Part shown: one piece after another, positions 19,812 through 64,000 of the stretch
Layout of the letters: every line of letters begins with the position of its first letter
How positions within the stretch are numbered: the first letter of the stretch is position 1
DNA from: Candidatus Melainabacteria bacterium
GTDB taxonomy: Bacteria; Cyanobacteriota; Vampirovibrionia; Gastranaerophilales; Gastranaerophilaceae
Reading direction: 5' to 3'
NCBI GenBank assembly: GCA_022009935.1
Contig: CP091731.1
Span: 1,222,212 to 1,286,211 of the forward strand
DNA: 64,000 nt
Notes under the pieces: generated by a model
Seen by the model: the letters and a program-made list of their open reading frames with translations, nothing else
What the model was told of the DNA's origin: nothing
The model's database searches: none
Program-made: the position numbers and the translations under genes

Positions 19812-20395
19812 TTTTTATATAAACCTAGCACAAAAAAAAACAAAGAAGTCCAATGGCTGACACTGCTTTATCTATAGACTTATGTCACAAGTTGCTTGAT
19901 TTTTTCTTTTTTTATATAAACCTAGCACAAAAAAAAACAAAGAAGTCCAAACTTGACTCTTCCTTGTTTTTTCGACTTTCTTAGCTAAATCTTTGCTTTT
20001 CTTCTTTTATATAAACCTAGCACAAAAAAGCAAAGAAGTCCAATGGCTGACACTGCCTTATCTATAAACTTATCCCACAAGTTGCTTAGATTTTTCTTTT
20101 TTTATATAAACCTAGCACAAAAAAAAACAAAGAAGTCCAAACTTGACTCTTCCTTGCTTTTTTCGACTTTCTTAGCTAAATCTTTGCTTTTTCTTCTTTT
20201 ATATAAACCTAGCACAAAAAAAACAAAGAAGTCCAAACTTGACTCTTCCTTGCTTTTACGACTTTCTTAGCTAAATCTTTGCTTTTCTTCTTTTATATAA
20301 ACCTAGCACAAAAAAAAACAAAGAAGTCCAATGGCTGACACTGCTTTATCTATAGACTTATGTCACAAGTTGCTTAGATTTTTTCTTTTTTATAC
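19812..20395. repeat. tandem array C: six 94-97-nt units with a common head and two alternative tails (order a-b-a-b-b-a)
   Basis: TATATAAACC unit starts at 19816, 19913, 20008, 20103, 20200 and 20294. The common head is TATATAAACCTAGCACAAAAAAAAACAAAGAAGTCCAA. The tails copy gene 3' ends (see findings). Confidence 0.9.
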
Positions 20396-20921
20396 CTTAG
20401 TCTTGTTGAAAGGTTGGTTATTGCACAAACAAAAAATCCCATAACACCAATACTAAACATAAATGGAATTAATGTTATTAACGATTTTTGCTTGATAAGT
20501 TTCTTATATTCATTTTTATATCTGTATTATTTTTGTCTGCAAGATTTTTTAGCTAATTTATTAAGTTCTGTAAATTTTACGACTTCTAAATCATTTTTAA
20601 GTGTTTCTTTGCATTTGCCGTTTTTTTTCAATATACGCTTAAATCCATTTTCAAAAAGTTCACTTCCCGATATAACATACAATCCGACAATCGGGTAACG
20701 AAAAGTGTTTCTATAAAATTTTCTTTCCCACGGTCATAAGCAGCACCAAAATATCCTAATCCCCTATTAATACACAAGATGTCAACTGTCCTTTGCTCAA
20801 ATTCAACTTTCCGTTTTCACTTGTATAATCAATACAAAAATATTTATTTATAAAATTTTTATATTTTTATTATTTTTGAAATTTTATCACCAGGTGAAAG
20901 TATAAATTCAGAAATATTCAT
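20374..20921 (-). CDS. hypothetical protein with C-terminal membrane helix, several frame changes
   Basis: ATG at 20921 overlaps the upstream stop (TAATG). Fragments are MNISEFILSPGDKISKII..., GLGYFGAAYDRGKENFIETLF..., ...LIPFMFSIGVMGFFVCAITNLSTRLRYKKEKI*. The stop at 20374-20376 lies inside the last array unit. Confidence 0.35.
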
Positions 20922-21536
20922 TATTGTCTTTGACTTACTTCCTTTTTAGCAAGCAAAATAGCACTCAAAATACTTAAAATCGATGCAATAAAAGCACGAA
21001 TTAAGTTTTTATATGCACTATTTTTTACTTTGTTAATTTTATTTTTATCTTCTTCTTTTTTGTCAAGTGATGCAATATTTACAAAATCACTTTGCTTGAA
21101 TGCTTTAATTGTAAGCAAATTCTTTGAAATAATTTAACGTAAAAACAAGAATTGGTATAATGAGTGATGTAAGTGCAATAGCTGCTTTTATTGGTATGAT
21201 TTTATTTTTAGTCGAAATCTTTTTTAATTTTTCATAACTTTGAGCTACTAATTTTTTTTGTTCAGAGGTTAACTTTTTTGAAAAAAGTTTGCGAAATATT
21301 TTCTCTCCCAATATTTGTGGTAAAAAATAAACAACGGCACTCTCTGCTGTTTCCAAAAATGTATTTTCAAATAAATCAGCCTTGCTTCTTGAAAATGCTG
21401 CTTTGGGAATAAGTTGTGTAGTTGTGTCCTGAATAAATCTTGATGTTGATAAGCCCGATGCACTTTCGTTGTGTGCAATAAATTTCCCAGCAAGTTTTAA
21501 TGGTAATGGTAATGTATTCAATAAATTATTTGTCAT
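20921..21536 (-). CDS. hypothetical membrane protein (one frame change)
   Basis: MTNNLLNTLPLPLKLAGKFIAHNESASGL... starts at the second ATG (21536) after AAGGAAAAAA. The C-terminal part ...FIASILSILSAILLAKKEVSQRQ* is in the adjacent frame. Confidence 0.45.
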
Positions 21537-21811
21537 ATTTTTTCCTTTTTTGTTAAAACTAAAAAACCTGTACATAAAGTGCAGGTTTAATTTATATTAA
21601 AATATAACAAATGTTACTACAGCCTGCACAATAATTATGCCAAGCTACGCCAACTTTTATTGATTTTATACATTACATTACTCATACTTTTATTATAATA
21701 GCAAATAAATATTATTCAATACCTATTTTATATTTATTAAGTTTTTTAAAAGCATAATTAATAAATCTGTCGAATTTAGAAATTCGACTAAAAACTAAGA
21801 CCTATTCTAAT

Positions 21812-22380
21812 ACATGCTTGTCTTCACTTCATCGTTCCAAATTATTGACAACTTTTTAAATAACGGACTTTGTGCGTCCAACAATTTGACTTTATCCACC
21901 AATGTGAATTGACTTTTGTTTGATTATAGCGTTGAAGTTCAATTAATACTTTTGTTAAACATTTTTTGTTTTTTCCGCCTGGGGCAGCGGATTCTACCCT
22001 AAAGGGCACCCTCCCTTGTACGGCTCGATTGCCATCTCGCCTACAAGAGGAGCTGTTGGTAGGGCGGAGTCGAGCGTTAGCGAGCGAGCCCGTAACAAAA
22101 CTAAAACAATGATTAGACTAAGAATTTAAAAAACGGGCTGCAATATAAAAAAAATCCGCTGGAGTGGAGCCTTGAAAAGGCGAAACGGAATGCAAGGATT
22201 GCGCTAAGCCAAATAATTTGGTATAACTAATTTTGAACAAATAACAACCCGACGTAATCCAAGAATCTGCCCTCATTTTATTCGGGCATCTGTCCTACGG
22301 CGGATTTTTTTATATACATGATGGGGACGGCTTCGCCGTCCCCACACTGCAACCCTCTTTGACATTCATAACTGAAAGTG
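21812..22380. repeat. non-coding mosaic of repeat modules (L, family-A core, GC-rich hairpins, K, M, H1)
   Basis: Modules are shared with 26126-27060 and 60224-60388: L 21812-21852, A-core 21897-21968, long GC hairpin 21975-22068, K 22153-22202, M (reverse) 22248-22303, H1 22323-22343. Confidence 0.8.
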
Positions 22381-22386
22381 TGGAAT

Positions 22387-22430
22387 AAAAAAAAGCAAAA
22401 GAAGTCCAAACTTGACTCTTCCTTGCTTTT
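22387..22430 (-). terminator. intrinsic terminator of pnp
   Basis: On the minus strand: AAGCAAGGAAGAGTC...GACTTCTTTTGCTT stem followed by an A/T-run (T8 in RNA sense), 10 nt after the pnp stop. Confidence 0.6.
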
Positions 22431-22439
22431 TCAATTTTC

Positions 22440-24572
22440 TTAGTTAAATCTTTGCTTTTCTTCTTCTGAAACACCTTTGATTGTCAAATTGACACGACCT
22501 TTGTCATCGATTTTAATAACTTTGACAATAACTTCATCGCCAATAGACAATTTGCTTTCAACGGTTTCAATACGTTCATTTGCAACTTGAGAAATATGCA
22601 CCATACCGTCTTTTCCGGGGGCAAGCTCAACAAAAGCTCCGATTGGTATAATTCTTACAACTTTTCCACGGCGAACCATACCCTCAACCGGTTTAAAAGT
22701 CGCATCTTCAATCATACGCATTGCTATATTAGCACCCTCGGCATCATTGCTTGTAATTGTAACATGTCCGTCATCTTGTATATCAATTTCAGCACCGCTA
22801 CATTCAATAATATTTTTAATATTTTTGCCTCCCGGACCAATAACAACACCAATATCATCAACATCAATGTTCATTGAATAAATGCGAGGTGCAAACGGTG
22901 ACATCTCTTTAGCAGGTTCAGTTATTACTTCACGCATTTTGCCAAGAATGTGCAAACGACCTTCTTTAGCCTGGTTTAAAGCTTGACGCAAAGTTTCATT
23001 GCTTATGCCTTTCACCTTCATATCCATCTGTAAAGCAGTAATGGCTTCGTCATTACCTGTAACCTTAAAGTCCATATCGCCCAAAAAGTCTTCAATACCT
23101 TGAATATCAGTCAGTACAACAGTTGCATCATCTTCTTTGATTAATCCCATAGCAACTCCGCCAATCATACATTTAACAGGAACACCCGCATTCATTAAAG
23201 CCATTGAGCTGCCACAAGTTGAAGCCATAGAAGTTGAACCGTTTGATTCCAAAACATCAGATGTAACACGGATTGTGTAACCAAATTTGTCCATATCAGG
23301 CAAAGCAGGAACATTTGCACGTTCAGCCAAGTTTCCATGACCTATTTCACGACGTCCCGGGCTTCTCAATGCCTTTACTTCACCTACTGAAAACCCAGGG
23401 AAAATGTACTTGTGCATATACGTCTTTTTAGTCAATGGGTCAACACCATCCAATTCAAGTGCCATTGAAGGTCCTGCAAGTGTTGCAACAGAAAGAACTT
23501 GAGTTTGCCCACGAGTGAATACGGCTGAACCATGAGCACGAGGAATTACCCCAACTTCACACCAAATCGGTCTGACTTCTGTTATTTTACGTCCGTCTGC
23601 ACGAACTCCCTCATCGATAATCATTCGACGCATTATTTTCTTTTCCAAATATTTAAACTCTTCAGCTATAAAATCAATGCCCGATTCATTTATCATTTTA
23701 TTTATTTCATCTTCTTCGCCTAAGGCTGCAACTTTTTCCTTAACAAGCGTTTTAGCTTCTTCAAGCTTATTTTGACGGTACTCACGGTCAAAATTATGAT
23801 AAGCATCATAAATCATATCATAAGCTGTTTCTTTTATTATTGAAGCCAAACGACTTGTGTCATAAGGATTTACAAATTCAGGTTTTTCAACCCCACACAT
23901 TTTAGCAAATTCAATTTGTGCTTGAACTTGTTTTTTATCTCAACTTGAGCAAACTCAACTGCGTGCATAATGTCATCTTCGGTCACAAAATTGCAACCGG
24001 CTTCAACCATAATAACACTGTTTTCAGTACCTGCAACAACTATATCCAAATCAGATTCTTTTGATTGTTGGTGAGTCGGGTTTGCAATATATTCACCATT
24101 AATACAAGCTACACGAACGGCACCGATAGGGACCTTCAAACGGAGCTTCTGTCAACATCAATGCAAATGAAGCACCCAACATTGCAAGAGTATCTGCTTG
24201 GTTTTCTTGGTCATAACTCATAAGTTGAGCCACGATTTGAACATCATTTCTATATCCTTTAGGAAATAAAGGACGAATTGGTCTGTCTATCAATCTTGAT
24301 ATTAATATAGCTTTTTCACTCGGACGTCCTTCATTTTTGGTAAATCCACCGGGAATTCGTCCAATAGCTGACATACGTTCTTCATAATCAATAAGCAACG
24401 GGAAAAAATCAATACCTACACGTGGTTCTTTTGCAACTGTTGCATGCACAAATAACATTGTATCACCACAACGTATTGTTACAGAAGAGCTTGCACTTCT
24501 TGCATATTTCCCTGTTTCTACTTCAACAACTTTTCCACCTATGGTAAGTTGTATTTTTTTACTTTCAACCAT
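22440..24572 (-). CDS. pnp: polyribonucleotide nucleotidyltransferase (PNPase), two frame changes
   Basis: Three ORF-track fragments (24099-24572, 23870-24139, 22440-23900) give a colinear PNPase: two RNase PH domains, KH, and S1 (GKVVRIIPIGAFVELAPGKDGMVHISQVA). One break is at the T6 run 23931-23936. Confidence 0.9.
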
Positions 24573-24721
24573 TTTTTCTTCTTTCTTTCTTTTTTATTTT
24601 CTACCCTTTTGTATTCATCTAAAATTATACAACAAATTGTTTTTAATGTAAAAAAAGGACGTATTTAATAAAAACACGTCCATTATTTAATTATATGTAA
24701 AATTAGTTTGTTGCTTATTAA

Positions 24722-26002: not shown

Positions 26003-26040
26003 ACAAAGAATTTGAAGTGAAATAAAATAAATTGATTTCA

Positions 26041-26125
26041 TTCACCATTGTGGATTGATTTTTGTTTACTTTTTGCGTTGAAGTCCAATTATTTTATTTT
26101 CCTCCAAATACTTTGTTTTAGTTTT
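26041..26125. repeat. single family-A repeat unit (degenerate)
   Basis: CACCATTGTGGATTGATTTTTG...GCGTTGAAGTCCAATTATTTTATTTTCCTCCAAATACTTTGTTTTAG, followed by TTTTATATGACGGGCT. Confidence 0.75.
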
Positions 26126-26514
26126 ATATGACGGGCTGCGGATTCGTCGTTGGCCGTCTTGGATTTCTTTCTAGCTCACAGAGCCGTGCCTTATGTGCCT
26201 TGCACAAGCCGGCACGGTCTGTTCGCTCCCCGGACTACGCCCGTTCAGAAATCCGCTTGCCTGATTGTGAGGAGAAAAGCGTTGCATCCGTGCGGAGCTT
26301 TAGACGAGGAAGCGACCCAGCTTCCGAGTATAAAGCGAAGTAGTTAATGACCGCCGTAGGAAAGACGACCGAATGAAATGAGGGCGGATGCCCCAGGCGG
26401 TAAAAAGCGTAAGCCGTGCGTAAAACAAAGCCAAAACGGCTCAGTTTTGGATTTGTTTGTAGCAGTTAATAGGCGACGGCGGATTCGCAGTTGGCCTTGC
26501 CTGATTGTGAGGAA
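26126..26514. other. GC-rich non-coding segment with long imperfect hairpins and module M copy A
   Basis: Much higher GC than the flanks. Extended hairpin 26167-26212 (AGAGCCGTGCC...GGCACGGTCT). M at 26351-26400. TTGCCTGATTGTGAGGA is repeated at about 26258 and 26497. The ORFs here have no SD and implausible composition. Confidence 0.6.
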
Positions 26515-26812
26515 CTGAACGGAGTGAAATAATTTTGTAAAAAAATTATGAAACGGAGTTGCATAGTTCCGAACGCTGCGTAATCCAAGATAAAAGAGTT
26601 TTCTTCGAAAACTCCACAGGAGCGAAAACTGAACGGAGTGGAACAATTTTGTAAAAATTGTGAAACGGAGTTGCATAGTTCGAACGCTGCGTAATCCAAG
26701 ATAAAAGAGTTTTCTTCGAAAACTCCACAGGAGCGAAAACTGAACGGAGTGGAACAATTTTGTAAAAATTGTGAAACGGAGTTGCATAGTTCCGAACGCT
26801 GCGTAATCCAAG
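26515..26812. repeat. 2.7 tandem units of 114/111 nt, each with two perfect 7-8 bp hairpins
   Basis: CTGAACGG unit starts at 26515, 26629 and 26740. Hairpins are ACAATTTT-GTA-AAAATTGT and GAGTTTTC-TTC-GAAAACTC. Unit 1 has the compensated variant ATAATTTT...AAAATTAT. Confidence 0.85.
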
Positions 26813-27060
26813 ACATGCTGTCTTCACTTCATCGTTCCAAATTATTGACAACTTGCAATCCTGCATTCCGTTTCGCCTTTTCAAGGCTACACTCCAGCGG
26901 ATTGCTGCGAACTTACGTGCTGGGTGTGCTGACGCACACACGGCGCACTAGTCAAAATTTGGCTAACCACGGCGGATATTATTTAATGCAGGGGGACGGC
27001 AAAGCCGTCCCCCTGCACCCCTTGGATATTCACAACTAAAAATGTGGAAAACAGAGCCAA
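26813..27060. other. GC-rich mosaic segment (modules L, K inverted, H1)
   Basis: L at 26813-26854 (same as 21812-21852). K at 26855-26905 (reverse complement of 22153-22202). H1 hairpin at 26988-27016, preceded by CCACGGCGG plus an AT spacer. Confidence 0.7.
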
Positions 27061-27096
27061 ACAAATGAGTGAACATTTCACGGGTTGCAAGGGGTT

Positions 27097-27371
27097 TTAT
27101 ATAACGGGCTAACGCGTGACAACTGATGCAGTCATTCACCAACGTGGATTGACTTTTACTTAATTATAGCGTTGAAGTCCAATAATGCTTTTTGTTAAGC
27201 ATTTTTGTTTTAGTTTTATATGACGGGCTAACGCGTGACAACTGATGCAGTCATTCACCAACGTGGGTTGGCTTTTGCTTAATTATAGCGTTGAAGTCCA
27301 ATTATTTTATTTTCCTCCAAATACTTTGTTTTAGTTTTATATAACGTGCCGTGGAATAACTAATTTTCACA
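27097..27371. repeat. family-A tandem units (2.3 copies) abutting the ispG stop
   Basis: TATATAAC / TATATGAC starts at 27097, 27217 and 27338 (120-121 nt period). The core is CACCAACGTGGATTGACTTTT...GCGTTGAAGTCCAAT. Confidence 0.85.
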
Positions 27372-28429
27372 CTACTTCAAACCAACAAGATAATTAGTAA
27401 GTATTGCTTCAAACTCGTTTAATAAATCTTCTTCTTTTACTTTTTTAATTATCTCGCCTTTTTTAAAAATATAACCTTCACCAATACCGCCTGCAATTCC
27501 AAAATCAGCATGTCTGGCTTCTCCCGAGCCATTGACGGCACATCCCATAACCGCAATTGTCAAAGGAGTTTTTATATTTTTAAATCTTTCCTCCACTTTG
27601 TGAGCAAGGTCAATCAAGTTTATTTTACACCTGCCACAAGTAGGGCAAGAGATAAAATTTATACCTTCATCACGAAGTTTTAAAGCTCGTAGTATATTAA
27701 ACCCTGCATAGACTTCTTCAATAGGGTTTTCACTTAGCGAAACACGTATTGTATCACCTATACCGTCAAGCAAAAGCGGTGAAAATGCAAGAGATGATTT
27801 TATTAGACCGTTTTTAAAGTACCTGCTTCTGTCAAGCCCAAGTGTAGCGGGTAATCTACTTTTTTGTCAATAAGCCTGTATGCTTCAATTGTTGTTTTAA
27901 CATCAGAAGATTTTAAAGACACTTTTATTTGGTCAAAATCGTTATCTTCTAATATCTTTATGTGTTCCATTGCCGACTCAACCATTTTTTCTGCAAGCGT
28001 TAAATCGTCACGGTTTGCATATTTTTTATCCAATGACCCCCCATTTATCCCGATACGGATTGGAATGTTGTGTTTTTTTGCACATTCGACAACTTTTTTA
28101 ACATTCTCTTCTTTTCCAATATTCCCAGGGTTCAATCTCAAAGCATCAACACCCATATCAATAGCGGTTAAAGCAAGCCTATAGTCAAAATGAATATCCG
28201 CAACAATTGGTATTGGTGATTTTTTCTTTATATCTTTCAAAGCGCTTGCCGCATCTTTATTTAAAACAGCTAAACGTATTATTTCACAACCGGCTTCGCT
28301 TAATTTAAAAATTTGGTTTAAAGTAGCGTTAACATCACAAGTATTTGTCGTACACATTGATTGGACAGCTATTTTATTTCCGCCACCGATTTTTACATCA
28401 CCTATTTTTATTACCTTTTTCATAGCCAT
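27372..28429 (-). CDS. ispG: 4-hydroxy-3-methylbut-2-en-1-yl diphosphate synthase (IspG/GcpE), one frame change
   Basis: Fragments 27803-28429 and 27372-27773 are colinear: ...HLGLTEAGT / GIGDTIRVSLS...CPTCGRC...GCAVNGSGEA. The break is at the T5/A3 run 27811-27818. Confidence 0.9.
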
Positions 28430-28432
28430 TTT

Positions 28433-29901: not shown

Positions 29902-32900
29902 ATGTTTGAAAATAATGAGGATAATGATAATTTAAATGAGTTTCTAAATGACGATAACTATAACTCGTCAGATACAGAAAAAATAATAAATGCCGTTTCT
30001 AAAGTTGAAGTCGGTATAATTTCTGCAGTTGCAGGTTTTTTTGAAAATATTTCCTTTATTGAAGAAACTCAAGCCATTGAAGATAATATAACTATAAACA
30101 CTTTAAACGTTATAAATGAAATTCAATCCTTGCGTGAAATTCTTATTAAACTGCCTTCAATAAAAAATATTAATTCAAATAGTGAAACTAATGACAACCA
30201 AAGTGAAGTTATTGAAAAATTAAATAATATTATTGAAACTTTAAAAGCTGTTTCAAACAGACCACAAGCACCTATTGAACCTAAAATAAATATTAATATT
30301 AATGAAGCATTAAAACCTTTAAATCAACAATTAGAGTCAATTAATTCTTATATAAATGAAATAAATTCACAAATCCAAACTTTAAAAGCACAAAATACAG
30401 AAAATATTTTAAATAAAGAAAATATAGAAGAAATTTGTAATGTTACCGAGGCAAATGGCAGTAATGGCAATATAATTGAGTCTTTAAATTTTCTTAATAA
30501 AAACCTTAGTCAAAAATTGCAAGAGGTGAAAAGCTTTGTCCAAAGCGAAAATAACAACAAACAAATTAGTGATTCTTTAAGCAATCTTAACCAAAACTTA
30601 CAAGAGGTGAAAAGCTTTGTCCAAAGCGAAAATAACAACAAACAAATTAGTGACTCTTTAAGCAACCTTAACCAGAACTTGCAAGAGGTGAAAAGCTTTG
30701 TCCAAAGCGAAAACAAAAACCAAGAAATTTGCGATTCTTTAAGCAACCTTAACCAAAACTTACAAGAGGTGAAAAGTTTTGTTCAAAGCGAAAACAAAAA
30801 CCAAGAAATTTGCGATTCTTTAAGCAACCTTAACCAAAACTTACAAGAGGTGAAAAGCTTTGTTCAAAGCGAAAACAAAAACCAAGAAATTTGCGACTCT
30901 TTAAGCAATCTCAACAATAATTTGCTTGAAATAAAGGATATAGTTGACACATACGAAAGTCAAACATGCGATAGGCTTAGCAATGATATACAAAATCTAA
31001 TAAAAGCTATTGAAATTAATGAAGATATTTATAACAATCAAACCCAAAATGATATTTTTGAAGCGTTAAATACTCTAAACAGTAAAATTAGTATAATTAC
31101 ACACACATATAATGAAACTGATGAAAATGACGTAAAAAACTTATTTGTAAGTATTGACGAAATTATAAATCATCTAAATTCACTTGATTTAAATATTAAT
31201 ACTATAGAGCAAAACCAAAATTCAATTGATGTAAAATATGAACTTGATAGTTTAAAAGAAGAACTTTCACAAATTATTGACGAAAAAACATCCCTTGTTG
31301 ATGAAAACCAAAGCTATAACGTTAATGAAATATTGACTGCTATAAACAATATAAAAGATAATATATCAAATTTAGATGATAAAATTAATGATGAAAGCAA
31401 AAATGAACAAGATGTCGCTTTTCGTGAAGAAATAAAAACAAATTTGACAAAATTATCACAACTTGTCGAGTATTCTTCCTCAACATCTTCAAGTACAATC
31501 CAAAACGAAATAAAAGAAGTCAAAGATACAATTATTGAATCCGTTGCCGGATTTTTTGCAAACTTTAATTTTGAAGAAGAACAAGAAACAATACAAAATT
31601 TTATTGTTGAAAATAAAAATGATATAAATGACAAACTAAACCAAACATTTATAAAACTTGATGAAAAATTAACACCAATTACATCAACAATACAAAACAT
31701 TGATATACTTAAAGAAAACGTAAGTCGCATTAACGAAATATTTTCAAAATCATCTAATGAATTGGATGACAACAATGACACATACAATTATACTTTTATC
31801 GACCTTGAAAATGATATTATAAAACTCAATATGATGTTGAATGATTTAACAACATCATTAAACCAAAATTTAGACGAAAACAAAACTACAATAAAAAATG
31901 AATTATCCAATGTAACAGAAATAGTAGAGTCATTCAAAAACGAAAATACGTCTTTCATTAAAGACGAAATATCAAACTTGTCCTCGGTTGTTGAGTCAAC
32001 AAATGATGACATTTCAAGCATTTCGAAACGAACAAATAAACTTATAATCTTAGCCGATGAAGCACAAAATGCTTATAATAATAATGTTGAAAAATTCAAA
32101 AATCTTACATCACAAATAATTGCTCAAATCAACAATCTTACAAAATTAGGACAGGATTTTTCAAATATAATAAACAAACAAAACCTAACATTAAACAATA
32201 TTAACAATCTAAACGAAGCTTTTATATACCTTGGAACTTGGATTGATGAAGTTGATGTAGTATTTAAAAATATACAAGAAAACGTTAAAACAACGGTTAA
32301 AAACGAAGATTTAAACCTTGTTCGTGTATCGGTTGAAGATAGGCTTAATAGCATTGAAAATGTTGTTTCAAATATTGAAAACTCCATAAATGATATGACG
32401 TTAAAACTTAATTCTTATGAAGAAATAAATGTTAATGTCGAAGATAAAATAGGCAGCTTTGATGAAATATTTGAAAATATTGAAAACAATATTAACGATA
32501 ATAACTTTAAAATAAATAATTTAAGCGAACAAATCGCTGATGTTGAAAATTCGTTTAATAATAATCTTATCTCAAAACTTGATAGGGTTAATGAAGTTAT
32601 TGAAGAACTTCAAAATTCATACGAAGAAACAAACAACAGCATCAATGAAAAAATTGAAACCATTGAGAATAATCTTAATAATAATGGTGATTATAGCGAT
32701 AAATTCAATGAAATTCTTGAAAAATTAAAAGAAAATGAAGAAAAGAATAACGAAATATCAAGAAAATTAGAAGAAAAAGAACAACTTTTTGAACAAATGA
32801 AAAACGATATGGACAATGTTCACAAGCTTAATGCCAAAGTTAACGGAATTGAAGATGTAATTTTACGCCTTGATAAAAAAATAACACGGATTGTTAATTA

Positions 32901-36232: not shown

Positions 36233-36239
36233 GTTTTTT

Positions 36240-39598: not shown

Positions 39599-39636
39599 TT
39601 TTTTTACATAACGGGCTTGTGCCCCTCATCCTTTCT
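39599..39636 (-). promoter_or_regulatory. conserved intercistronic hairpin element (GAAGGATG..GGGC-N4-GCCC-GTTAT(A/G)TAAAA) between minD and minE
   Basis: Gene strand reads GAAAGGATGAGGGGCACAAGCCCGTTATGTAAAAAAA-ATG(minE). It closely matches the element in front of atpE (62634-62672) and in each family-A unit. Confidence 0.5.
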
Positions 39637-39641
39637 ATCAA

Positions 39642-53547: not shown

Positions 53548-53690
53548 TTATAAATCTATTATTAAATTTTGAATGTGCTATAAAATAATTATATCGAAAA
53601 TATGTACAAATGTAAAACAAAATGTGATATAATGATGTGGTGAACAAGCACAATTAAAAATTTTCTTTTATATCTTAGGCTTTCAAAATT

Positions 53691-53779
53691 CGGAGAAAGT
53701 GGGATTTGAACCCACGGTGGAGTTTGAGCCCCACAACGACTTTCGAGGTCGTCACCTTAAACCACTCGGACATTTCTCC
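53691..53779 (-). tRNA. tRNA-Ser (anticodon CGA)
   Basis: GGAGAAATGTCCGAGTGGTTTAAGGTGACGACCTCGAAAGTCGTTGTGGGGCTCAAACTCCACCGTGGGTTCAAATCCCACTTTCTCCG. Long variable arm. Confidence 0.9.
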
Positions 53780-53821
53780 TTATTATTTAATATTATATCT
53801 TAAAAATGCTTATTAAGATAA

Positions 53822-54225: not shown

Positions 54226-54291
54226 TGTTCCTCTTTTATGTATTTTTCATATTTACTTACAATAAAATCAGTGTTATTGTTAATATAAAAT

Positions 54292-57372: not shown

Positions 57373-57522
57373 AGTTTAACTCCTCTCAAATATAGTAACA
57401 TATAAAGCAAACTATAGCAATAAAATGTCCTGTTTCACCAACATGGATTAAGTTAAAAATTGAACATGCGGTAGTCCGTTATAAAAAAATTTAATATGAG
57501 TTTACTCTGGAACATAAAAATT

Positions 57523-57611
57523 CGGAGAGAGAGGGATTTGAACCCTCGGTGAAGTTTGACCCCCACACAGACGTTCCAGGTCTGCACCTTAAGCCACTCG
57601 GACACCTCTCC
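57523..57611 (-). tRNA. tRNA-Ser (anticodon GGA)
   Basis: GGAGAGGTGTCCGAGTGGCTTAAGGTGCAGACCTGGAACGTCTGTGTGGGGGTCAAACTTCACCGAGGGTTCAAATCCCTCTCTCTCCG. Confidence 0.9.
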
Positions 57612-57619
57612 TTGTTTTT

Positions 57620-58565
57620 TTAAATAGCATTTGCACCACTTACAACTTCGTTTATTTCTTGAGTAATGGCACCTTGACGTGCTTTGTTATAGTCAACACT
57701 TAGTTTATATATCATGTCCTCTGCATTTTTGCAAGCTGATGACATAGCTGTCATACGAGAAGCCAATTCAGATGCTGTTGCTTCAAGCAAAGCATGGTAT
57801 ATCATATTTGTAATAAACATCGGAACAACTTTTTGCAAAATAACGTGTTCATTTGGCTCAAATGTCATCAAAGCATCTATTTGTGTTGCTTTGTTTGGTT
57901 TTTGTTCATCGGATTCATTGTTTTCTTTCATTTCGTCTAAGTTCATTGGCAAGATAGTCCAGTCAACAACTTTATATGACATCATATTTTGAAAACGTGT
58001 TGTTATGATTTCAATGTTGTCTATTTTGTTATCAACAAAACAACTTGTCATATCTTCAGCTATAACAATTGCCTGACCTGATGTAGGATTTTGCGGAATG
58101 TTTAGATATTTTTTTTCAATTTCACAATTTAAGCTTTCACACTTGCGACGCAACCCTTGATAACCTTTTTGTCCAACGATAAACAATTTGACTTTAATAT
58201 TTTGTTTATTATATTCTTCAATACGCTTCAAAGTAAAGCGAATAACATTTGCATTATAAGCTCCGGCTAATCCTTTTGAAGAAGTGACAATAAGCATTCC
58301 TGCAGTTTTAAGCTCTCTTGGTTTCAACAACTCAGCATAATTATCCAAAGCTCGTTTCACCTTTAACCCACTCATTGAATATTTGCTTACAGAGCGTAAA
58401 GCCTGCTAAAAACAAACGCAACTTCTTTGGCAAAAGGTCTTGCGGCTTTCACTCGGTTTTCAGCTTTTTTACTTTTGCAGCTGCCACCATTTTCATTGCT
58501 TTTGTTATTTTTTGTGTGTTTTGAATACTTGTTATTCTGTCTTTTATATCTTTTAAATTTGACAT
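57620..58565 (-). CDS. atpG: ATP synthase F1 gamma subunit (one frame change)
   Basis: [36 protein letters not shown]... joined to track ORF 57620-58375 (...[20 protein letters not shown]). Confidence 0.9.
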
Positions 58566-58608
58566 ATTTATTTTAACCTATATTATTTATTCGCCACAAA
58601 AACCCGAC

Positions 58609-60109
58609 TTAAATGAACTTATGTTTTTTCTTTAATGTTTCAATATCTTCGTCATTCATTTTTTCACCGGAATTTAGTTTATCATTAAGTTGAGGCATAT
58701 TGGATTCAAAATAATCAAACCAACATTTTTTAAACTCAGGGATTTTAGTATTTTTTATATCATCTAAAAACCCATTGTTAGCGGCAAAAAGGATAGATAT
58801 TTGTTTTGCGACACTCAATGGTGAATACTGTGGTTGTTTCAAAACTTCAGTTAATTTTTCACCTCGAAGAAGTTGGTCTCGAGTAGCTTTATCCAAATCA
58901 CTTGCAAACTGTGCAAACGCTTCAAGTTCGTGGTATTGTGCCAAATCTAAACGAAGTTGTCCTGCAACTTGTTTAATACCTTTTGTTTGTGCAGCACCAC
59001 CTACACGAGAAACAGAAATCCCTGCATTTATTGCAGGACGTACACCTGAATTAAATAAATTGCTTTCCAGGAATATTTGTCCGTCAGTTATAGAAATAAC
59101 ATTAGTGGGGATATAAGCAGAGACGTCGCCGGCTTGAGTTTCAATAATAGGCAAAGCAGTTATACTTCCACCACCTAATTCATCATTCAGCTTACAAGCA
59201 CGCTCAAGCAATCTTGAATGTAAATAAAAGACATCACCAGGGTAAGCTTCACGTCCCGGTGGGCGTTTCAACAACAAGCTCATTGCACGATATGCTTGAG
59301 CGTGCTTTGTCAAATCATCATATATTATTAAAACTGATTTTCCCTCTTCCATAAACTCTTCGCCAATTGCAACACCCGCAAATGGTGCTATATATTGCAT
59401 TGGAGCCGGTGAGTTCGCAGAAGCGTTCACTATTATTGTATAATCCATAGCATCGTGTTCATTCAACGTTTTGGCTAGTTGAGCAACTGTTGAGTTCTTT
59501 TGACCGATTGCAACATAAATACATATTACATCACGACCTTTTGGTTGATGATTGTGTCAATAGCGATAGCTGTTTTGCCTGTTTGTCTATCTCCAATAAT
59601 CAACTCACGTTGTCCTTTTCCAATTGGTGTTAATGCATCAATTGCAGTCAAGCCTGTTTGAAGTGGCTCTATGTACTGATTTTCTTGTTACAATCCCCGG
59701 TGCAACACGTTCAATGGCTCGAGTTTTTGTATATTCGATATTGCCTTTACCGTCAAGTGCAACCCCTGTTGGGTCAATTATCCTTCCTATCAGGCCTGTA
59801 CCAACCGGTACTGATGCAATTCGTCCTGTCGTTTTTACTTTAGTGCCTTCTTTTATTTCTTTATAATCACCCAAGATTACAACACCAACATTATCTTCTT
59901 CTAGGTTTAACACAAGACCCAAAGTTTTATTTTCATCTTCAAACTCGACAAGTTCACTTTTGCATGGCATCTTTCAAACCATATATTCTTGCTATGCCAT
60001 CGCCTGATTCAAGCACCTGACCTTGTGTGTTTATTTCAACTCGACTTTCATAATTCTCTATTTTTGAACGTATTATATTTGTGATTTCGCTTGGATTTAT
60101 TGTTACCAT
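58609..60109 (-). CDS. atpA: ATP synthase F1 alpha subunit (frame changes)
   Basis: [23 protein letters not shown]..., ...[15 protein letters not shown]..., [13 protein letters not shown] (Walker A region in a shifted frame), ...[19 protein letters not shown]... Confidence 0.9.
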
Positions 60110-60780
60110 TTTTTATATAATCCTTCCTTGTTATATTACATCAAGTCCAATCTTGACACTTCTTCAATCTCTAATTATACTACTAAACCATTGATTTTCT
60201 GTTTTATATAACCCTTCCTTGTTTAATTTTGCTATTGTTTGTTTACTTTTTTGGGGGTTGCAGGGAGGCTTTGCCTCCCCTGCTGTTATAAAATCCGCCG
60301 TAGGAAAGACGCCCGATTGAAATGAGGGCGGATCCCTCAGGCGGAAAAAAGAGTTTGGAATGTTTGTATCTATTTAATTTTTATTTGGTTTATATAACCC
60401 TTCCTTGTTATATTACATCAAGTCCAATCTTGATACTTCTTCAATCTCTAATTATACTACTAAACCATTGATTTTCTGTTTTATATAACCCTTCCTTGTT
60501 ATATTACATCAAGTCCAATCTTGACACTTCTTCAATCTCTAATTATACTACTAAATCATTGATTTTCTGTTTTATATAACCCTTCCTTGTTATATTACAT
60601 CAAGTCCAATCTTGACACTTCTTCAATCTCTAATTATACTACTAAACCATTGATTTTTTTGTTTTATATAACCCTTCCTTGTTATATTATATCAAGTCCA
60701 ATCTTGACACTTCTTCAATCTCTAATTATACTACTAAACCATTGATTTTCTGTTTTATATAACCCTTCCTTGTTATATTA
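60110..60780. repeat. tandem array B: 91-92-nt units (five full, two partial) filling the atpH-atpA intergenic region
   Basis: TATATAAC starts at 60114, 60205, 60391, 60482, 60573, 60665 and 60756. Each full unit carries TTGACA-17-TATACT on the + strand (first copy 60153-60181). Confidence 0.9.
60224..60388 (+). other. 165-nt GC-rich segment (H1 hairpin + module M) replacing most of array-B unit 2
   Basis: H1 GCAGGGAGGC-TTT-GCCTCCCCTGC at 60260-60283. Spacer TGTTATAAAAT. M CCGCCGTAGGAAAGACGCCCGATTGAAATGAGGGCGGATCCCTCAGGCGG at 60295-60344. Confidence 0.7.
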
Positions 60781-61323
60781 CATCAAATTATTCTTTAATC
60801 GTTCATATCTGCTTTTTATACTACCATCAATTATTTTATCATTAGTTTTTATAATTAAACCACCAATGATTGATTTATCAACGGTATAATTTAATAGTAT
60901 TGTCTTTTTAAATTTGTTTTCCAATTTATACTTTAAACGTTCTTTTGTTTCATCGTTTAAAACTATAGCTGATGTTACGCTAACTTTAAGTTTATTTTTA
61001 ATCTCATCATCGAACTCGCAATACCAATGTGCTATATCTTCAAATATATCCATCCGACGTGCTTGAATTAACATTCTTAGAAAATTTAGTGTTTTTTCTG
61101 ATATTTTAGATGCAAAAATTTCACTAATAATTTCTTCAACTTTTTCTTCATTAAATGTTGGATTTATAAGCACATTCTTTAAATCTGAAGATGATTTTAT
61201 TGTTTCATTTATTAAGCTCAAATCATTACGTATAACATCAATATCATTTCCTGCACTTTCAATTAATGCACGTGAATATCGTTTTGCTATTGTTTCATTT
61301 TTATAACTCATGTTTTTCATCAT
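60778..61323 (-). CDS. atpH: ATP synthase F1 delta subunit (OSCP)
   Basis: Intact 181 aa. IAKRYSRALIESA... and C-terminal DKSIIGGLIIKTNDKIIDGSIKSRYERLKNNL. Confidence 0.85.
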   Translation of the reverse strand: MMKNMSYKNETIAKRYSRALIESAGNDIDVIRNDLSLINETIKSSSDLKNVLINPTFNEEKVEEIISEIFASKISEKTLNFLRMLIQARRMDIFEDIAHWYCEFDDEIKNKLKVSVTSAIVLNDETKERLKYKLENKFKKTILLNYTVDKSIIGGLIIKTNDKIIDGSIKSRYERLKNNLM

Positions 61324-61824: not shown

Positions 61825-62290
61825 TTCTCATTACCTCATCAACTTTATTTTCATCAAATGATATATTGTCAATATTTTCTCCAAGGATTTTTGTTGCAAT
61901 ATAATTGGATAATGATTTAACATCCTCTCGCACATTTTTATATATATCATTTTTTTGGTTTTCTAAGTCATTTTTTGCATTAGTTAATTTATTAGCTATT
62001 TCATTTTTTTTATTTTTTATTTCAACATCTTTTTGGTTTTTCAATTTATCTTTGCCATTTAAAATAATATCATTAGCGTTTTGATTTGCCTTTTGTATGT
62101 TAATATTATGTTGATTAATGCATTCTTTTTCGTTTTGGTTGTGGGTATTAACTTTTGTTTTATTATCATCAAGGAGCATATTACGTTTTTCAATAATATC
62201 ATTAATTGGCTTGTATAATATTTTATTCATAAGCAAAGTAAATATTATAAAGCTAATTGTTGCTATTAAAAAAGTTCCGTTAAATTCCAT
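61817..62290 (-). CDS. atpF2: ATP synthase F0 b-prime-type subunit (second b paralogue)
   Basis: Intact 157 aa. MEFNGTFLIATISFIIFTLLMNKILYKPINDIIEKR followed by a long charged helix. Confidence 0.75.
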   Translation of the reverse strand: MEFNGTFLIATISFIIFTLLMNKILYKPINDIIEKRNMLLDDNKTKVNTHNQNEKECINQHNINIQKANQNANDIILNGKDKLKNQKDVEIKNKKNEIANKLTNAKNDLENQKNDIYKNVREDVKSLSNYIATKILGENIDNISFDENKVDEVMRNV

Positions 62291-62323
62291 TTTATACCCT
62301 TTAACCTTTCATTCTATTTATGT

Positions 62324-62350
62324 GAAAGCAGTTAAAATTAAACTGCTTTC
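62324..62350 (-). promoter_or_regulatory. 10-bp stem-loop between atpE and the b-prime gene (mRNA stabiliser/attenuator candidate)
   Basis: GAAAGCAGTT-N7-AACTGCTTTC, a perfect stem in the 81-nt spacer after the c-subunit gene. Confidence 0.45.
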
Positions 62351-62371
62351 AAGCATAAAAGAACTTTACTA

Positions 62372-62623
62372 TTATCCTATCATACCGCAAAGTTTCATAG
62401 CAATAAATAAGCCATAAATAGCACAAGCTTCAGATAAAGCAGCACCAAGAAGGAAGAACCCCACAGCCTTACCGGCTATTTCAGGTTGACGAGCTATTGC
62501 TTCAAGCAGACCCTTTGTTGCCACACCAATACCAACACCTGCACCTATTGCACCAAAACCGATTGCAATACCTGCACCTAAGTTGCTTAATCCCTGTACT
62601 TCGTTTAACATTTCTGTTACCAT
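62372..62623 (-). CDS. atpE: ATP synthase F0 c subunit
   Basis: Intact 83 aa. GAGIAIGFGAIGAGVGIGVATKGLLEAIARQPEIAGK...LSEACAIYGLFIA. AAGGAG SD. Confidence 0.95.
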   Translation of the reverse strand: MVTEMLNEVQGLSNLGAGIAIGFGAIGAGVGIGVATKGLLEAIARQPEIAGKAVGFFLLGAALSEACAIYGLFIAMKLCGMIG

Positions 62624-62633
62624 ATTTTTCTCC

Positions 62634-64000
62634 TTTTTTATATAACGGGCTATCGCCCTACATCCTTCTTATTCTACCACCAACGTGGAATGACTTTTGT
62701 TTAATTTTTGCATTGAAGTCCAATTATTTCATTTTCCTTCAAATACTTTGTTTTAGGTTTTATATAACGGGCTATCGCCCTACATCCTTCTTATTCTACC
62801 ACCAACGTGGAATGACTTTTGTTTTGATTTTGCATTGAAGTCCAATTATTTCATTTTCCTTCAAATACTTTGTTTTAGGTTTTATATAACGGGCTATCGC
62901 CCTACATCCTTCTTATTCTACCACCAACGTGGAATGACTTTTGTTTTGATTTTGCATTGAAGTCCAATTGGTACTTCCTAATATCGTTTATCATAATAAA
63001 CTTAAATTTGTGCAACCCATACGCAGTCGTGAACAATTATCACTTAACGAAACATCGTCAAAGCCAAGTTTGTTTGAACATTGGGCTTTGCCCAATGTGA
63101 GTTACGCAGGCTCGAGTTGAGTTTAGTGAAAATGTGAACGACAAGTCGGGGACTGAGTTTTTGTGCAACTTTGCCACCAAAAGTTGCCCCGTCCGGAGGA
63201 CATTATATTTAATTTAGTTTTATTAACCTTTAATTTTTTATTTTCCATTTTTTCCTTTTTTATATAACGGGCTATCGCCCTACATCCTTCTTATTCTACC
63301 ACCAACGTGGAATGACTTTTGTTTAATTTTTGCATTGAAGTTCAATTATTTCATTTTCCTTCAAATACTTTGTTTTGGGTTTTTATATAACGGGCTATCG
63401 CCCTACATCCCTTCTTATTCTACCACCAATGTGGAATGACTTTTGTTTAATTTTTGCATTGAAGTTCAATTATTTCATTTTCCTTCAAATACTTTGTTTT
63501 GGGTTTTATATAACGGGCTATCGCCCTACATCCTTCTTATTCTACCACCAACGTGGAATGACTTTTGTTTTGATTTTGCATTGAAGTCCAATTGGTACTT
63601 CCTAATATCGTTTATCATAATAAACTTAAATTTGTGCAACCCATACGCAGTCGTGAACAATTATCACTTAACGAAACATCGTCAAAGCCAAGTTTGTTTG
63701 AACATTGGGCTTTGCCCAATGTGAGTTACGCAGGCTCGAGTTGAGTTTAGTGAAAATGTGAACGACAAGTCGGGTGCCGGTTTTGTGCAACTTTTGCCAC
63801 CAAAGTTGCCCCGTCCGGAGGACATTATATTTAATTTAGTTTTATTAACCTTTAATTTTTTATTTTCCATTTTTTCCTTTTTTATATAACGGGCTATCGC
63901 CCTACATCCTTCTTATTCTACCACCAATGTGGAATGACTTTTGTTTAATTTTTGCATTGAAGTTCAATTATTTCATTTTCCTTCAAATACTTTGTTTTAG
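62634..64000. repeat. higher-order tandem repeat upstream of atpE: 622-bp blocks of three family-A units plus a 289-nt X segment; continues past the window end
   Basis: TATATAAC starts at 62639, 62761 and 62883, then 63261, 63384 and 63507, then 63883. X segments at 62970-63260 and 63595-63882. Block period is exactly 622 nt. Confidence 0.9.

What the first reader, a model, noticed from the sequence alone, without database searches (positions are those of the whole stretch)
19845..63970. Three array families share one grammar: a TTTTATATAAC box and a GAAGTCCAA core
Seen:
- Families A (26041-26125, 27097-27371, 62634-64000, and the partial copy 21897-21968), B (60110-60780) and C (19812-20395) all start units with TTTTATATAA(A)C.
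- All contain (G/C)AAGTCCAA. Examples are 19845-19853, 22401-22409 beside pnp, 26080-26088, 62715-62723, and CAAGTCCAA in every B unit.
- B units and C tail-b units share AAGTCCAA(T/A)CTTGAC(A/T)CTTC.
- On the gene strand the box reads GTTATATAAAA. It sits immediately 5' of the start regions of atpE, atpA, minE and the X-segment ORF.

Inference: the arrays are amplified gene junctions of one lineage-specific type. Alternatively, the box and core are recognition sequences for a recombinase, nuclease or RNA-binding factor. I know of no described repeat family with this grammar, but I cannot search.
Basis: partly seen in the sequence, partly recalled or inferred. Interest (0 to 1): 0.65.

Follow-up and report, generated by a model that had tools for sequence, protein, structure and literature searches.

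The report
Junction repeat arrays in gut Melainabacteria
Three tandem arrays between genes of an uncultured gut Melainabacterium are built from small mosaic intergenic repeats, specific to this lineage, whose copy number differs between strains; this is an ordinary kind of bacterial repeat (like MIRU or BOX elements), seen here in a lineage where I found none described.

Summary
All three arrays carry the box (gene strand GTTATATAAAA; its core TTTATATAAA is a palindrome) and the core (TTGGACTTS).

- **Host and position.** The window comes from a Candidatus Gastranaerophilales bacterium. Every array lies on the gene (minus) strand in a spacer: atpB-atpE (A), atpH-atpA (B), and between a 393-aa gene and tRNA-Ala (C).
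- **No motif outside the repeats.** Outside them, box and core occur at background frequency.
- **Architecture.** Each array reads L(XL)n, where L is a 26-52 nt linker ending in the box and X is a cassette.
- **Family A.** A is a widely dispersed ~122-nt element: 21 metagenome loci, often tandem, mostly co-oriented with the upstream gene.
- **Families B and C.** B interiors and C tail-b are copies of the native pnp 3' end plus its terminator hairpin. C tail-a is the 3' end of the gene upstream of the array.
- **Variation.** Copy number and nested GC-rich inserts differ between strains. The window's minD-minE junction holds only one linker. The arrays are absent from the atp operon of the sister species.

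Best reading: a lineage-specific MIRU/BOX/BIME-like mosaic repeat system that grows and shrinks by recombination or slippage. How copies disperse is unknown. Nothing here supports a recombinase or RNA-factor recognition site, and nothing excludes one.

The parts
19813..20388 (-). Array C. Six 94-97 nt units in gene-strand order a,b,b,a,b,a between the 393-aa gene (stop at 20358-20360) and tRNA-Ala. The unit nearest the gene (20291-20388) is that gene's native 3' end. Each unit ends in TTGGACTTCTTTG(T)n GTGCTAGGTTTATATAAAA.
   Evidence: L096 shows the intact gene running into the same array
19660..19734 (-). tRNA-Ala(UGC), downstream neighbour of array C. By my reading it has its own TTGCAT-17-TATAAT promoter-like site between the array and the tRNA.
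22387..22465 (-). Native 3' end of pnp: the last ~9 codons, the stop, a hairpin containing TTGGACTTC and a U-tract. This is the source sequence of C tail-b and the relative of the B unit interior.
   Evidence: 92% identical to C-b units; 98.7% over 76 nt in L096; hairpin -16.6 kcal/mol, z -3.0; C-terminal tail conserved in relatives
21855..21972 (-). Single diverged A-family element downstream of pnp, next to a GC-rich element (about 21973-22360).
   Evidence: nhmmer E 1.8e-24
26027..26121 (-). Truncated A-family element (model positions 2-96), abutting the 3' end of the convergent 253-aa ORF.
   Evidence: L096 has only this one unit between ispG and that ORF
26126..27094 (.). GC-rich composite insert between A copies. 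It includes a 111-115 nt MITE-like element with terminal inverted repeats, tandem x2.7 at 26479-26815. Absent at this site in L096.
27095..27345 (-). A-family array (two full units plus the leading box segment), immediately 3' of ispG (stop at 27372-27374).
39599..39641 (-). minD-minE spacer holding one solo A-type linker (AGAAAGGATGAGGGGCACAAGCCCGTTATGTAAAA). Other strains have one or two full A units here.
60112..60787 (-). Array B between the atpH stop (60778-60780) and the atpA ATG (60110). The 34-nt linker TTGATGTAATATAACAAGGAAGGGTTATATAAAA occurs 7 times. It separates five 57-nt pnp-3'-like cassettes and one GC-rich cassette (inside 60203-60388).
62636..64000 (-). Array A upstream of atpE (ATG at 62623). 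It has 122-nt units and a 624-nt higher-order repeat (two blocks 96.8% identical) that includes two GC-rich X cassettes (62978-63257, 63602-63879). The array runs off the window end.

Best explanation
The three arrays are variable-number tandem arrays made from a mosaic family of small, non-coding intergenic repeats specific to this lineage of gut Gastranaerophilales (Melainabacteria).

**Architecture.** Each array reads L(XL)n. L is a 26-52 nt linker that ends in the AT-only palindromic box. At the last copy it runs straight into the Shine-Dalgarno sequence or start codon of the next gene. X is a cassette of one of these kinds:
- the ~87-nt core of the dispersed A element;
- a ~57-75 nt copy of a gene's 3' end with its terminator-like hairpin (the pnp type in B and C-b, the 393-aa gene's own end in C-a);
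- a nested GC-rich element.

**What box and core are.** The box is the shared 3'-terminal module of the units. The core TTGGACTTS is the 3' side of a hairpin module. The families share them through common descent and module exchange (statistically supported for B/C, suggestive for A). They are not independent occurrences of a genome-wide signal.

**How arrays change.** Once two linkers flank a cassette, unequal homologous recombination or replication slippage between the direct repeats expands and contracts the array. The same process produces higher-order repeats and can collapse an array to one solo linker.

**Why they persist.** Copies survive mainly when co-oriented with the flanking genes. 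In that orientation they supply, rather than disrupt, a stop-proximal hairpin and an AU-rich leader for the downstream cistron.

**Shown:** position, architecture, homology to pnp, dispersal of A, strain polymorphism, absence in sister taxa, orientation bias.

**Inferred:** slippage or recombination as the amplifier, selection on orientation, near-neutral or selfish status. The way copies reach new junctions is unknown.
For: - **Taxon and gene map:**
- **L(XL)n anatomy:**
- **Strain polymorphism.** The atpH-atpA spacer is 117/306/477/518/586 nt in same-species contigs and 667 nt in the window, with a GC-rich insert present or absent. The atpB-atpE spacer is 164/719/784 nt and at least 1377 nt in the window. 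The minD-minE spacer is 43 nt in the window (solo linker), 166-167 nt (one unit) and 402 nt (two units plus a MITE) elsewhere. The ispG 3' flank is 157 nt in L096 and 1369 nt in the window.
- **Assembly behaviour.** Contigs break inside the arrays, and k-mer depth there is about 5-10x that of the flanks.
- **Absence in relatives.** Box, core and A elements are absent from the atp loci of L016 (atpA 94% aa identity) and more than 20 other Gastranaerophilales.
- **Dispersal of A.** 21 metagenome loci in many contexts, several of them tandem.
- **Orientation.** All 11 window copies lie on the gene strand. The upstream gene is co-oriented in 12 of 14 cases, two-sided p 0.013. Copies on both sides of a putative oriC keep the gene orientation.
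- **B/C homology:** 0/500 shuffles. The B interior against the pnp 3' end: 1/1000. C-b is 98.7% identical to the pnp end in L096.
- **Direction of copying.** The PNPase tail EEEKxRxN is conserved in relatives. Their pnp 3' flanks lack the hairpin.
- **No background signal:**
- **No coding or MITE features.** Units have stops in all frames, lengths that are not multiples of 3, and no terminal inverted repeats.
Against: - The dispersal mechanism is not identified.
- No truly empty site was seen. Even the shortest allele keeps a linker homologous to those at other loci.
- Copy numbers in short-read contigs may be collapsed, so the allele series is qualitative.
- The A to B/C relationship rests on two short shared words (p about 0.003), while whole-unit alignment is not significant.
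- Modest covariation in three A helices (13 double-change cells against 6.5 expected, 0/500 shuffles) hints at some structural constraint. A purely neutral model does not require that.
- The orientation count includes loci that may be orthologous to each other.
Confidence: 0.6

Rival explanations
1. The box is the target or crossover site of a site-specific DNA system: an HUH/Y1 transposase of the IS200/IS605 or RAYT type, or a tyrosine recombinase. That system inserts cassettes next to the box and regenerates it, so arrays of linker-cassette-linker build up by repeated insertion. The core hairpin would be the protein's recognition hairpin.
For: - Every cassette, whatever its kind, is flanked by the box on both sides.
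- The box is an AT-only palindrome.
- A units have subterminal hairpins near both ends, no terminal inverted repeats and no evident target duplication, much like IS200/IS605-derived elements.
- GC-rich elements insert reproducibly in or next to the terminal hairpin and box.
- A synteny break, with a xerC/D-like gene whose stop lies in the box, occurs at an A element in L097.
Against: - The repeated linkers are 26-52 nt, far longer than a target site. The solo 'empty' allele keeps the whole linker.
- Identical units in tandem are explained more simply by unequal crossing-over.
- Element orientation follows gene direction on both sides of the putative oriC. It does not follow replication direction as expected for IS200/IS605.
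- I found no transposase or RAYT in the window. The only recombinase is a fragmented prophage serine recombinase at 18405-19460.
- The L097 recombinase scores as an ordinary XerC/XerD.
- The core differs between strains.
Confidence: 0.2
2. The units are functional cis-acting RNA modules inside polycistronic mRNAs. Hairpins carrying UUGGACUU, and the AU-rich box, would be bound or cut by an RNA-binding protein or RNase. This would set the relative stability and translation of neighbouring cistrons (for example high atpE output), and copy number would tune the effect.
For: - Strict placement between cistrons or in 3' flanks, with co-orientation with the genes.
- Predicted hairpins with z scores of -2 to -3.
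- In B the Shine-Dalgarno sequence sits in a hairpin loop closed by the box.
- Some covariation in A helices.
- C units are terminator-like (hairpin plus U-tract) and pile up in front of a tRNA gene that has its own promoter-like site.
Against: - Absent from the same junctions in the sister species.
- Zero to several copies at one junction among strains of one species.
- The RNAalifold consensus for A is weak, -2.3 kcal/mol.
- Non-Watson-Crick cells are mostly A.C (24) rather than G.U (6) on the gene strand.
- The motifs are not found at other junctions outside the repeats.
- No RNA data could be obtained.
Confidence: 0.15
3. The shared motifs are a by-product of AT-rich composition, or of assembly errors that created false tandem copies.
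For: - The box is AT-only, and the bare 10-mer occurs at background rate elsewhere.
- The window has single-base indel errors.
- Whole-unit alignment of A against B/C is not significant.
Against: - The same units and arrays appear in many independent assemblies from different samples.
- Repeat regions show raised k-mer depth.
- B/C homology: 0/500 shuffles.
- The colinear A-B words were reached by only 16 of 5000 resamples.
Confidence: 0.03

Closest known systems
MIRU-VNTR (mycobacterial interspersed repetitive units; Supply et al. 1997, as summarised in PMC3184786)
   Same: - Units of roughly 40-100 bp, dispersed over many loci and often tandem.
- They sit in intergenic spacers within operons and are transcribed with them.
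- Ends touch the flanking genes.
- Copy number varies between strains.
- They are missing from orthologous sites of a related species.
   Different: - No small ORF runs through the units here. Stops occur in all frames and lengths are not multiples of 3.
- The host genome is AT-rich.
- Arrays are mosaics of a constant linker with different cassettes, including copies of another gene's 3' end and nested GC-rich elements.
- Sequence relatedness to MIRUs was not tested and is not expected.
Pneumococcal BOX and SPRITE elements (PMC3184786; Croucher et al. 2011 cited there)
   Same: - BOX is modular, with an internal module repeated a variable number of times. It is intergenic, predicted to fold, and co-transcribed with its neighbours.
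- SPRITE is a dispersed repeat that looks like a rho-independent terminator and sits near gene 3' ends. The pnp-type hairpin plus U-tract module of C units is comparable.
   Different: - There is no boxA or boxC-like terminal pair.
- The modules here include real gene 3' ends.
- No mobilising IS is known.
- The phylum is different and there is no sequence similarity.
REP/BIME mosaic elements of enterobacteria and pseudomonads, with RAYT transposases
   Same: - Intergenic mosaic clusters built from a few short modules, placed between cistrons.
- They can affect mRNA stability.
- Cluster size differs between strains.
   Different: - REPs are 20-40 nt GC-rich palindromes, usually in alternating orientation.
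- The units here are 90-125 nt, AT-rich and strictly direct.
- No RAYT gene has been identified; the whole genome was not available.
IS200/IS605-derived non-autonomous elements (PATEs)
   Same: - No terminal inverted repeats and no target duplication.
- Subterminal hairpins.
- New sequence always joined on one side of a short conserved sequence.
- A strong orientation bias.
   Different: - Orientation tracks transcription rather than replication.
- The repeated linker is much longer than a 4-5 nt target.
- No TnpA was seen.

Membership tests
MIRU-like intergenic VNTR repeats | Direct tandem arrays of 40-100+ bp units in intergenic spacers | tested here: met
   TRF periods of 91, 97 and 122 nt. 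All arrays lie between annotated genes.
MIRU-like intergenic VNTR repeats | Copies dispersed at many loci of the genome | tested here: met
   - A: five loci in the window (four nhmmer-detected plus the solo linker at minD-minE) and 21 metagenome loci.
- B/C type: only three loci seen, namely pnp, the 393-aa gene and atpH.
MIRU-like intergenic VNTR repeats | Same orientation as the flanking operon | tested here: met
   11 of 11 window copies lie on the gene strand. The upstream gene is co-oriented in 12 of 14 cases.
MIRU-like intergenic VNTR repeats | Copy number polymorphic between strains; absent at orthologous sites of relatives | tested here: met
   strains; relatives. Caveat: short-read contigs may collapse arrays.
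MIRU-like intergenic VNTR repeats | Small ORFs inside the units whose start and stop overlap the neighbouring genes | tested here: not met
   Stops in all three frames; unit lengths of 91, 95-97 and 122 nt. Only the B linker contains the atpH stop codon.
Classical MITE | Terminal inverted repeats and target-site duplication | tested here: not met
   The best end-to-end complementarity is 3-7 nt for A, B and C units. The nested 115-nt GC-richer element does have ~17-bp imperfect terminal inverted repeats.
IS200/IS605-type non-autonomous element (PATE) or REP/RAYT | Subterminal hairpins, insertion 3' of a fixed short target, no duplication | tested here: inconclusive
   Hairpins are present and the box flanks every cassette. 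But 26-52 nt linkers are repeated, and no virgin empty site was found.
IS200/IS605-type non-autonomous element (PATE) or REP/RAYT | Orientation tied to the replication strand; a cognate Y1/RAYT gene in the genome | tested here: inconclusive
   Orientation does not flip across the putative oriC at 36.4-36.6 kb, but that origin is only inferred. No such gene was noticed in the window (reading of the ORF translations; 20 ORFs scanned against Pfam). The rest of the genome was not available.
Integron-like cassette array | attC sites with RYYYAAC...GTTRRRY core sites, ORF-bearing cassettes, an adjacent intI | tested here: not met
   GTTATAT does not fit GTTRRRY (read from the sequence). Cassettes have no ORFs. 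I found no integrase next to the atp arrays.
Intrinsic terminator (SPRITE-like module) | Stable hairpin followed directly by a U-tract at a gene's 3' end | tested here: met
   - pnp and C-b module: -16.6 kcal/mol, z -3.0, followed by T8-9.
- Not met for C-a (z +0.7).
- Not met for B or A, which have no T-run.
Known structured RNA family (Rfam) | Match to a curated covariance model | tested here: not met
   No hit in the arrays at gathering threshold or at E<=1.

The most novel reading that the evidence does not exclude
The box-bounded linker is the crossover or target site of an undescribed copying system. That system captures short pieces ending at transcript 3' ends. The pnp copy runs from about 30 nt inside the coding sequence exactly to the end of the terminator U-tract, as a 5'-truncated cDNA of a terminated mRNA would. 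The system would install such pieces as cassettes between constant linkers at operon junctions. The arrays would then work as strain-variable dials on intercistronic expression, for example ATP synthase subunit ratios.
Probability: 0.08. Interest if true: 0.75.

Novelty: new member of a known kind. Interest (0 to 1): 0.4.

Why it matters
- **A new host lineage.** Gastranaerophilales are uncultured, widespread gut relatives of cyanobacteria. I found no description of their repeat content.
- **Assembly.** These repeats break short-read assemblies at core operons (atp, min, ispG, pnp) and mark synteny breakpoints. They explain fragmented MAGs of this lineage.
- **Strain typing.** The arrays offer ready-made VNTR markers for strain tracking in gut metagenomes.
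- **Operon expression.** Arrays sit inside the ATP synthase operon and in front of minE, which raises a testable question about how the operon tolerates or uses them.
- **Origin of such repeats.** Units that are recognisable copies of a gene's 3' end plus terminator give an unusually clear view of where this kind of repeat can come from.

Tried and rejected
- **Alternative genetic codes.** I tested them to explain the fragmented ORFs. No stop reassignment restores long ORFs. The breaks are 1-base indels relative to other assemblies.
- **Box and core as -10/-35 promoter halves.** Spacings of 8-40 nt differ between families. The scan gives no gene-strand promoter in the units. It does find an antisense TTGACA-17-TATACT in each B unit, which I noted but did not pursue.
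- **Rfam.** No family matches at gathering or at E-value thresholds.
- **RNA evidence.** No usable RNA runs were found. The runs hold contigs only, of unknown kind.
- **B interior as a copy of the atpA 5' end or the atpH 3' end.** Not supported (509/1000 and 61/1000).
- **pnp C-terminal codons as element-derived.** Rejected: the tail is conserved in relatives.
- **The X-segment ORF as a gene.** Rejected: the GC-rich core of the cassette is inverted relative to its flank in other strains, so the ORF is not conserved.
- **L127's 410-aa gene as orthologue of the 393-aa gene.** They are not related.
- **Exact-protein look-up of the 156-aa ORF at 21105-21575.** Not on record, because it is a fragment.
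- **The L097 recombinase as an island integrase.** It scores as an ordinary XerC/XerD.
- **Full Pfam scan.** A scan of all window and metagenome ORFs for transposases was prepared but only sampled.

Full report
**What the window is.** It is about 30% GC. It carries minCDE, pnp, an mscS-type channel gene, ispG, dnaN, prfA, a tmRNA gene and a cyanobacterial-order atp operon (c, b', b, delta, alpha, gamma). An AtpA search of one-genome-per-species contigs places it in Candidatus Gastranaerophilales (Melainabacteria). The nearest representative is at 94% AtpA identity (L016) and the next are at 75-80%. Identical proteins occur on many gut-metagenome contigs; MinD is indexed in 188 collection blocks. 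Many window ORFs are broken. No stop-codon reassignment repairs them. Other assemblies have intact atpA, ispG, pnp and minE, and they differ from the window by single-base indels (for example at 59958 and 61721). The window is therefore probably a long-read assembly with residual indels. That also explains why its arrays are long and uninterrupted.

**The observation.** All three arrays are real and lie where stated. The box and core counts (12 against 0.21 expected; 20 against 0.95) are far above shuffles, but only because the motifs sit in repeated units. With the repeats masked, TTATATAAAA occurs 3 times (2.5-5.0 expected), TTGGACTT 6 times (2.7) and GTTATATAAAA 0 times (0.35-0.67). So there is no motif at large in the window.

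Sharing between families is still more than chance.
- B and C units align significantly (0/500 shuffles).
- A and B share a colinear 9-mer (ATTGGACTT) and 11-mer (GTTATATAAAA), reached by only 16 of 5000 Markov-1 resamples.
- Whole-unit A against B/C alignment is not significant.
- Box-core spacing differs between families. The core of the box, TTTATATAAA, is a perfect palindrome.

**Anatomy on the gene strand.** All arrays lie on the minus strand, the strand of the neighbouring genes. Each reads L(XL)n.
- **B.** L is TTGATGTAA (the last two atpH codons plus the stop), then TATAAC, then AAGGAAGG (Shine-Dalgarno), then GTTATATAAAA. The last copy is followed directly by the atpA ATG. X is a 57-nt cassette, or in one unit a GC-rich cassette.
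- **A.** L is AGGATGTAGGGCGATAGCCCGTTATATAAAA, a small hairpin plus the box. It appears first right after the atpB stop, and last just before the atpE Shine-Dalgarno sequence. X is the ~87-nt A core or a ~280-nt GC-rich X cassette. Two 624-nt blocks, each of two full A units plus one unit carrying an X cassette, are 96.8% identical, which makes a higher-order repeat.
- **C.** L is TTGGACTTCTTTG(T)n GTGCTAGGTTTATATAAAA. X alternates between tail a and tail b.

**Where the cassettes come from.**
- Contig L096 of the same species shows that tail a is the native 3' end of the 393-aa gene that runs into the array. It also shows that tail b is a 98.7% copy of the pnp 3' end: its last ~9 codons, the stop, and the hairpin through the U-tract (92% within the window).
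- PNPase homologues at 78-91% identity keep a similar C-terminal tail, EEEK(Q/S/A)(R/Q)(F/I)N in several of them. Their 3' flanks have other terminators or run straight into pyrH. The pnp end is therefore native and the array units are copies of it.
- The 57-nt interior of B is also related to the pnp 3' end (1/1000 shuffles). It is not related to the atpA 5' end (509/1000) or the atpH 3' end (61/1000).
- The atpA leader in the sister species (GGTTAGAAATAAAATG) resembles the B box region (GGTTATATAAAAAATG). By my reading, the box in B is probably the native translation-initiation region.

**Family A is a dispersed element.**
- A pattern built from its conserved centre found 21 further loci in metagenome contigs. 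They lie in varied gene contexts, often at contig ends, and several are tandem.
- A profile finds 11 copies in the window, all on the minus strand. It finds none in the atp loci of about 80 other genomes.
- The canonical consensus is ~123 nt. It has a highly conserved centre (AATTGRACTTCAAYGC ... AAAARTCAATCCACGTTGGTG) and ends in GCCCGTYATATAAAA.
- A related species (pnp 91% identical) also has a copy.
- The upstream gene is co-oriented in 8 of 10 metagenome cases and in 4 of 4 cases in this species (binomial p 0.013).
- A cluster of 11 TTTTCTACA boxes at 36388-36625 upstream of dnaN looks like oriC. Repeat copies on both sides of it keep the gene orientation. That argues against a mechanism biased by replication strand.

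**Variation.** The table gives spacer lengths in nt across same-species contigs.

| Spacer | Other same-species contigs | Window |
|---|---|---|
| atpH-atpA | 117, 306, 477, 518, 586 | 667 |
| atpB-atpE | 164, 719, 784 | at least 1377 |
| minD-minE | 166-167 (one A unit); 402 (two units plus a 115-nt MITE-like element in the linker's hairpin loop) | 43 (one solo linker) |
| ispG 3' flank | 157 (L096) | 1369 |

- The 189-nt GC-rich cassette in the atpH-atpA spacer is present in some contigs and absent in others.
- In L097 the ispG flank leads into a convergent xerC/D-like gene whose stop codon lies in the box. This is a synteny break at the repeat.
- The core is not invariant. Most A units in other strains read TTGAACTTC, and the last B unit reads TTGGGCTTG.
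- Short-read contigs can collapse arrays, so these lengths are a qualitative series. Raised k-mer depth in the arrays supports multi-copy status.

**Structure and coding.**
- Units have stops in all frames, lengths that are not multiples of three, and no terminal inverted repeats.
- The pnp/C-b module folds as a strong hairpin followed by a U-tract (-16.6 kcal/mol, z -3.0). B folds into two small hairpins, one of which presents the Shine-Dalgarno sequence in a loop closed by the box. A units fold with z of about -2 to -2.6.
- RNAalifold finds only a weak consensus for A.
- A three-helix model I proposed shows 82% pairing and 13 double-change cells against 6.5 expected (0/500 shuffles). The sequences are related and the model was derived from them, so this is weak evidence.
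- Non-Watson-Crick cells in that model are A.C 24 against G.T 6 on the gene strand, from few independent events. This is unexplained.
- No Rfam family matches.

**Interpretation.** The simplest account of all this is a lineage-specific mosaic repeat system of the MIRU/BOX/BIME kind. Short modules, some of them recognisable copies of gene 3' ends, sit at stop-to-start junctions and in 3' flanks. They are flanked by a common linker that ends in the box. They expand, contract and homogenise by unequal recombination or slippage between the direct repeats. Box and core are then parts of shared modules rather than free-standing signals. The known parallels are described in PMC3184786. They include operon-internal tandem MIRUs that are absent at the orthologous sites in M. 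leprae, modular BOX elements, and terminator-like SPRITE elements.

Two rivals remain open.
- **The box as the target of an unidentified HUH or tyrosine recombination system.** This is attractive because every kind of cassette is box-flanked. It is weakened by the long repeated linkers, the orientation pattern, and the absence of a candidate enzyme in the sequence available.
- **A cis-acting RNA role.** This is favoured by position and orientation. It is weakened by absence in the sister species and by presence/absence polymorphism within the species.

The literature searches found no description of repeats in Gastranaerophilales or Melainabacteria.

**Verdict.** This is a new member of a known kind of bacterial repeat. 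It is of moderate interest for the biology of this uncultured lineage, for MAG assembly and for strain typing. There is a small chance that an unusual copying mechanism lies behind the 3'-end cassettes.

Noticed in passing
window 36388-36625: A cluster of 11 TTTTCTACA-type boxes (six on the minus strand, then five on the plus strand) lies in the ~900-nt spacer upstream of dnaN. It is a likely chromosomal replication origin (DnaA-box cluster).
   Followed up: partly
window 1-19600: A prophage-like block on the plus strand: VapE-like primase/helicase, SNF2 helicase, a PolA-type polymerase and a RuvC-like gene. It ends in a large serine recombinase (Resolvase plus Zn_ribbon_recom, 18405-19460) next to tRNA-Ala. 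Its ORFs are heavily fragmented.
   Followed up: partly
window 59958, 61721 and many ORFs (atpA 58609-60110, ispG 27372-28429, pnp 22440-24590, minE 39100-39598): Genes that are intact in other assemblies are frameshifted in the window. Public contigs differ from it by single-base indels. This is consistent with residual long-read assembly errors rather than pseudogenes.
   Followed up: partly
window 26479-26815; L001 1846-1960; L121, L111, L097: A 111-115 nt GC-richer MITE-like element with ~17-bp imperfect terminal inverted repeats (GGATT(A)CGTCG...). It inserts into the loop of the A element's terminal hairpin. In the window it is itself tandemly repeated 2.7 times.
   Followed up: partly
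window 62978-63257 and 63602-63879; L006 4135-4390; L016 8699-9116: The GC-rich core of the X cassette (ends TGCAACCC...) is inverted relative to its AT-rich flank between the window and other strains. The 'X-segment ORF' is therefore not conserved. Related GC-rich pieces also occur in the sister species.
   Followed up: partly
window 60153-60181, 60430-60458, 60521-60549, 60612-60640, 60704-60732 (+ strand): Every B unit carries a near-consensus sigma-70-like site on the strand antisense to the atp operon, pointing into atpH: TTGACA-17-TATACT (11 of 12) in four units and TTGATA-17-TATACT (10 of 12) in the fifth.
   Followed up: no
L097 2100-3490 (same species) compared with window 26003-27371: There is a synteny break at the ispG-proximal A element. 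In L097 and L098 the repeat is followed by a convergent xerC/xerD-like gene (TIGR02224, 331.8 bits) whose TGA stop lies inside the box. The window and L096 have a different gene there.
   Followed up: partly
alignment A1 (A-family copies): In the proposed helices, non-Watson-Crick cells are A.C/C.A 24 against G.T 6 on the gene strand. They would be G.U wobbles on the antisense strand. They come from few independent events, so this is weak.
   Followed up: partly
window 30502-30915, 47818-48375, 16439-16843: Three in-frame coding tandem repeats: 81 nt x5.1 inside a 1008-aa ORF with no Pfam match, 123 nt x4.5 in a small ORF, and 18 nt x22.5 in a DUF7666 protein of the prophage-like block.
   Followed up: no
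window 53685-53788 and 57517-57620: The two tRNA-Ser genes (CGA and GGA anticodons) with their flanks are 84.6% identical over 104 nt. They look like a dispersed duplicate pair.
   Followed up: no
window 6493-6581: A perfect 42-nt x2.1 tandem repeat in a GC-richer stretch of the prophage-like region.
   Followed up: no
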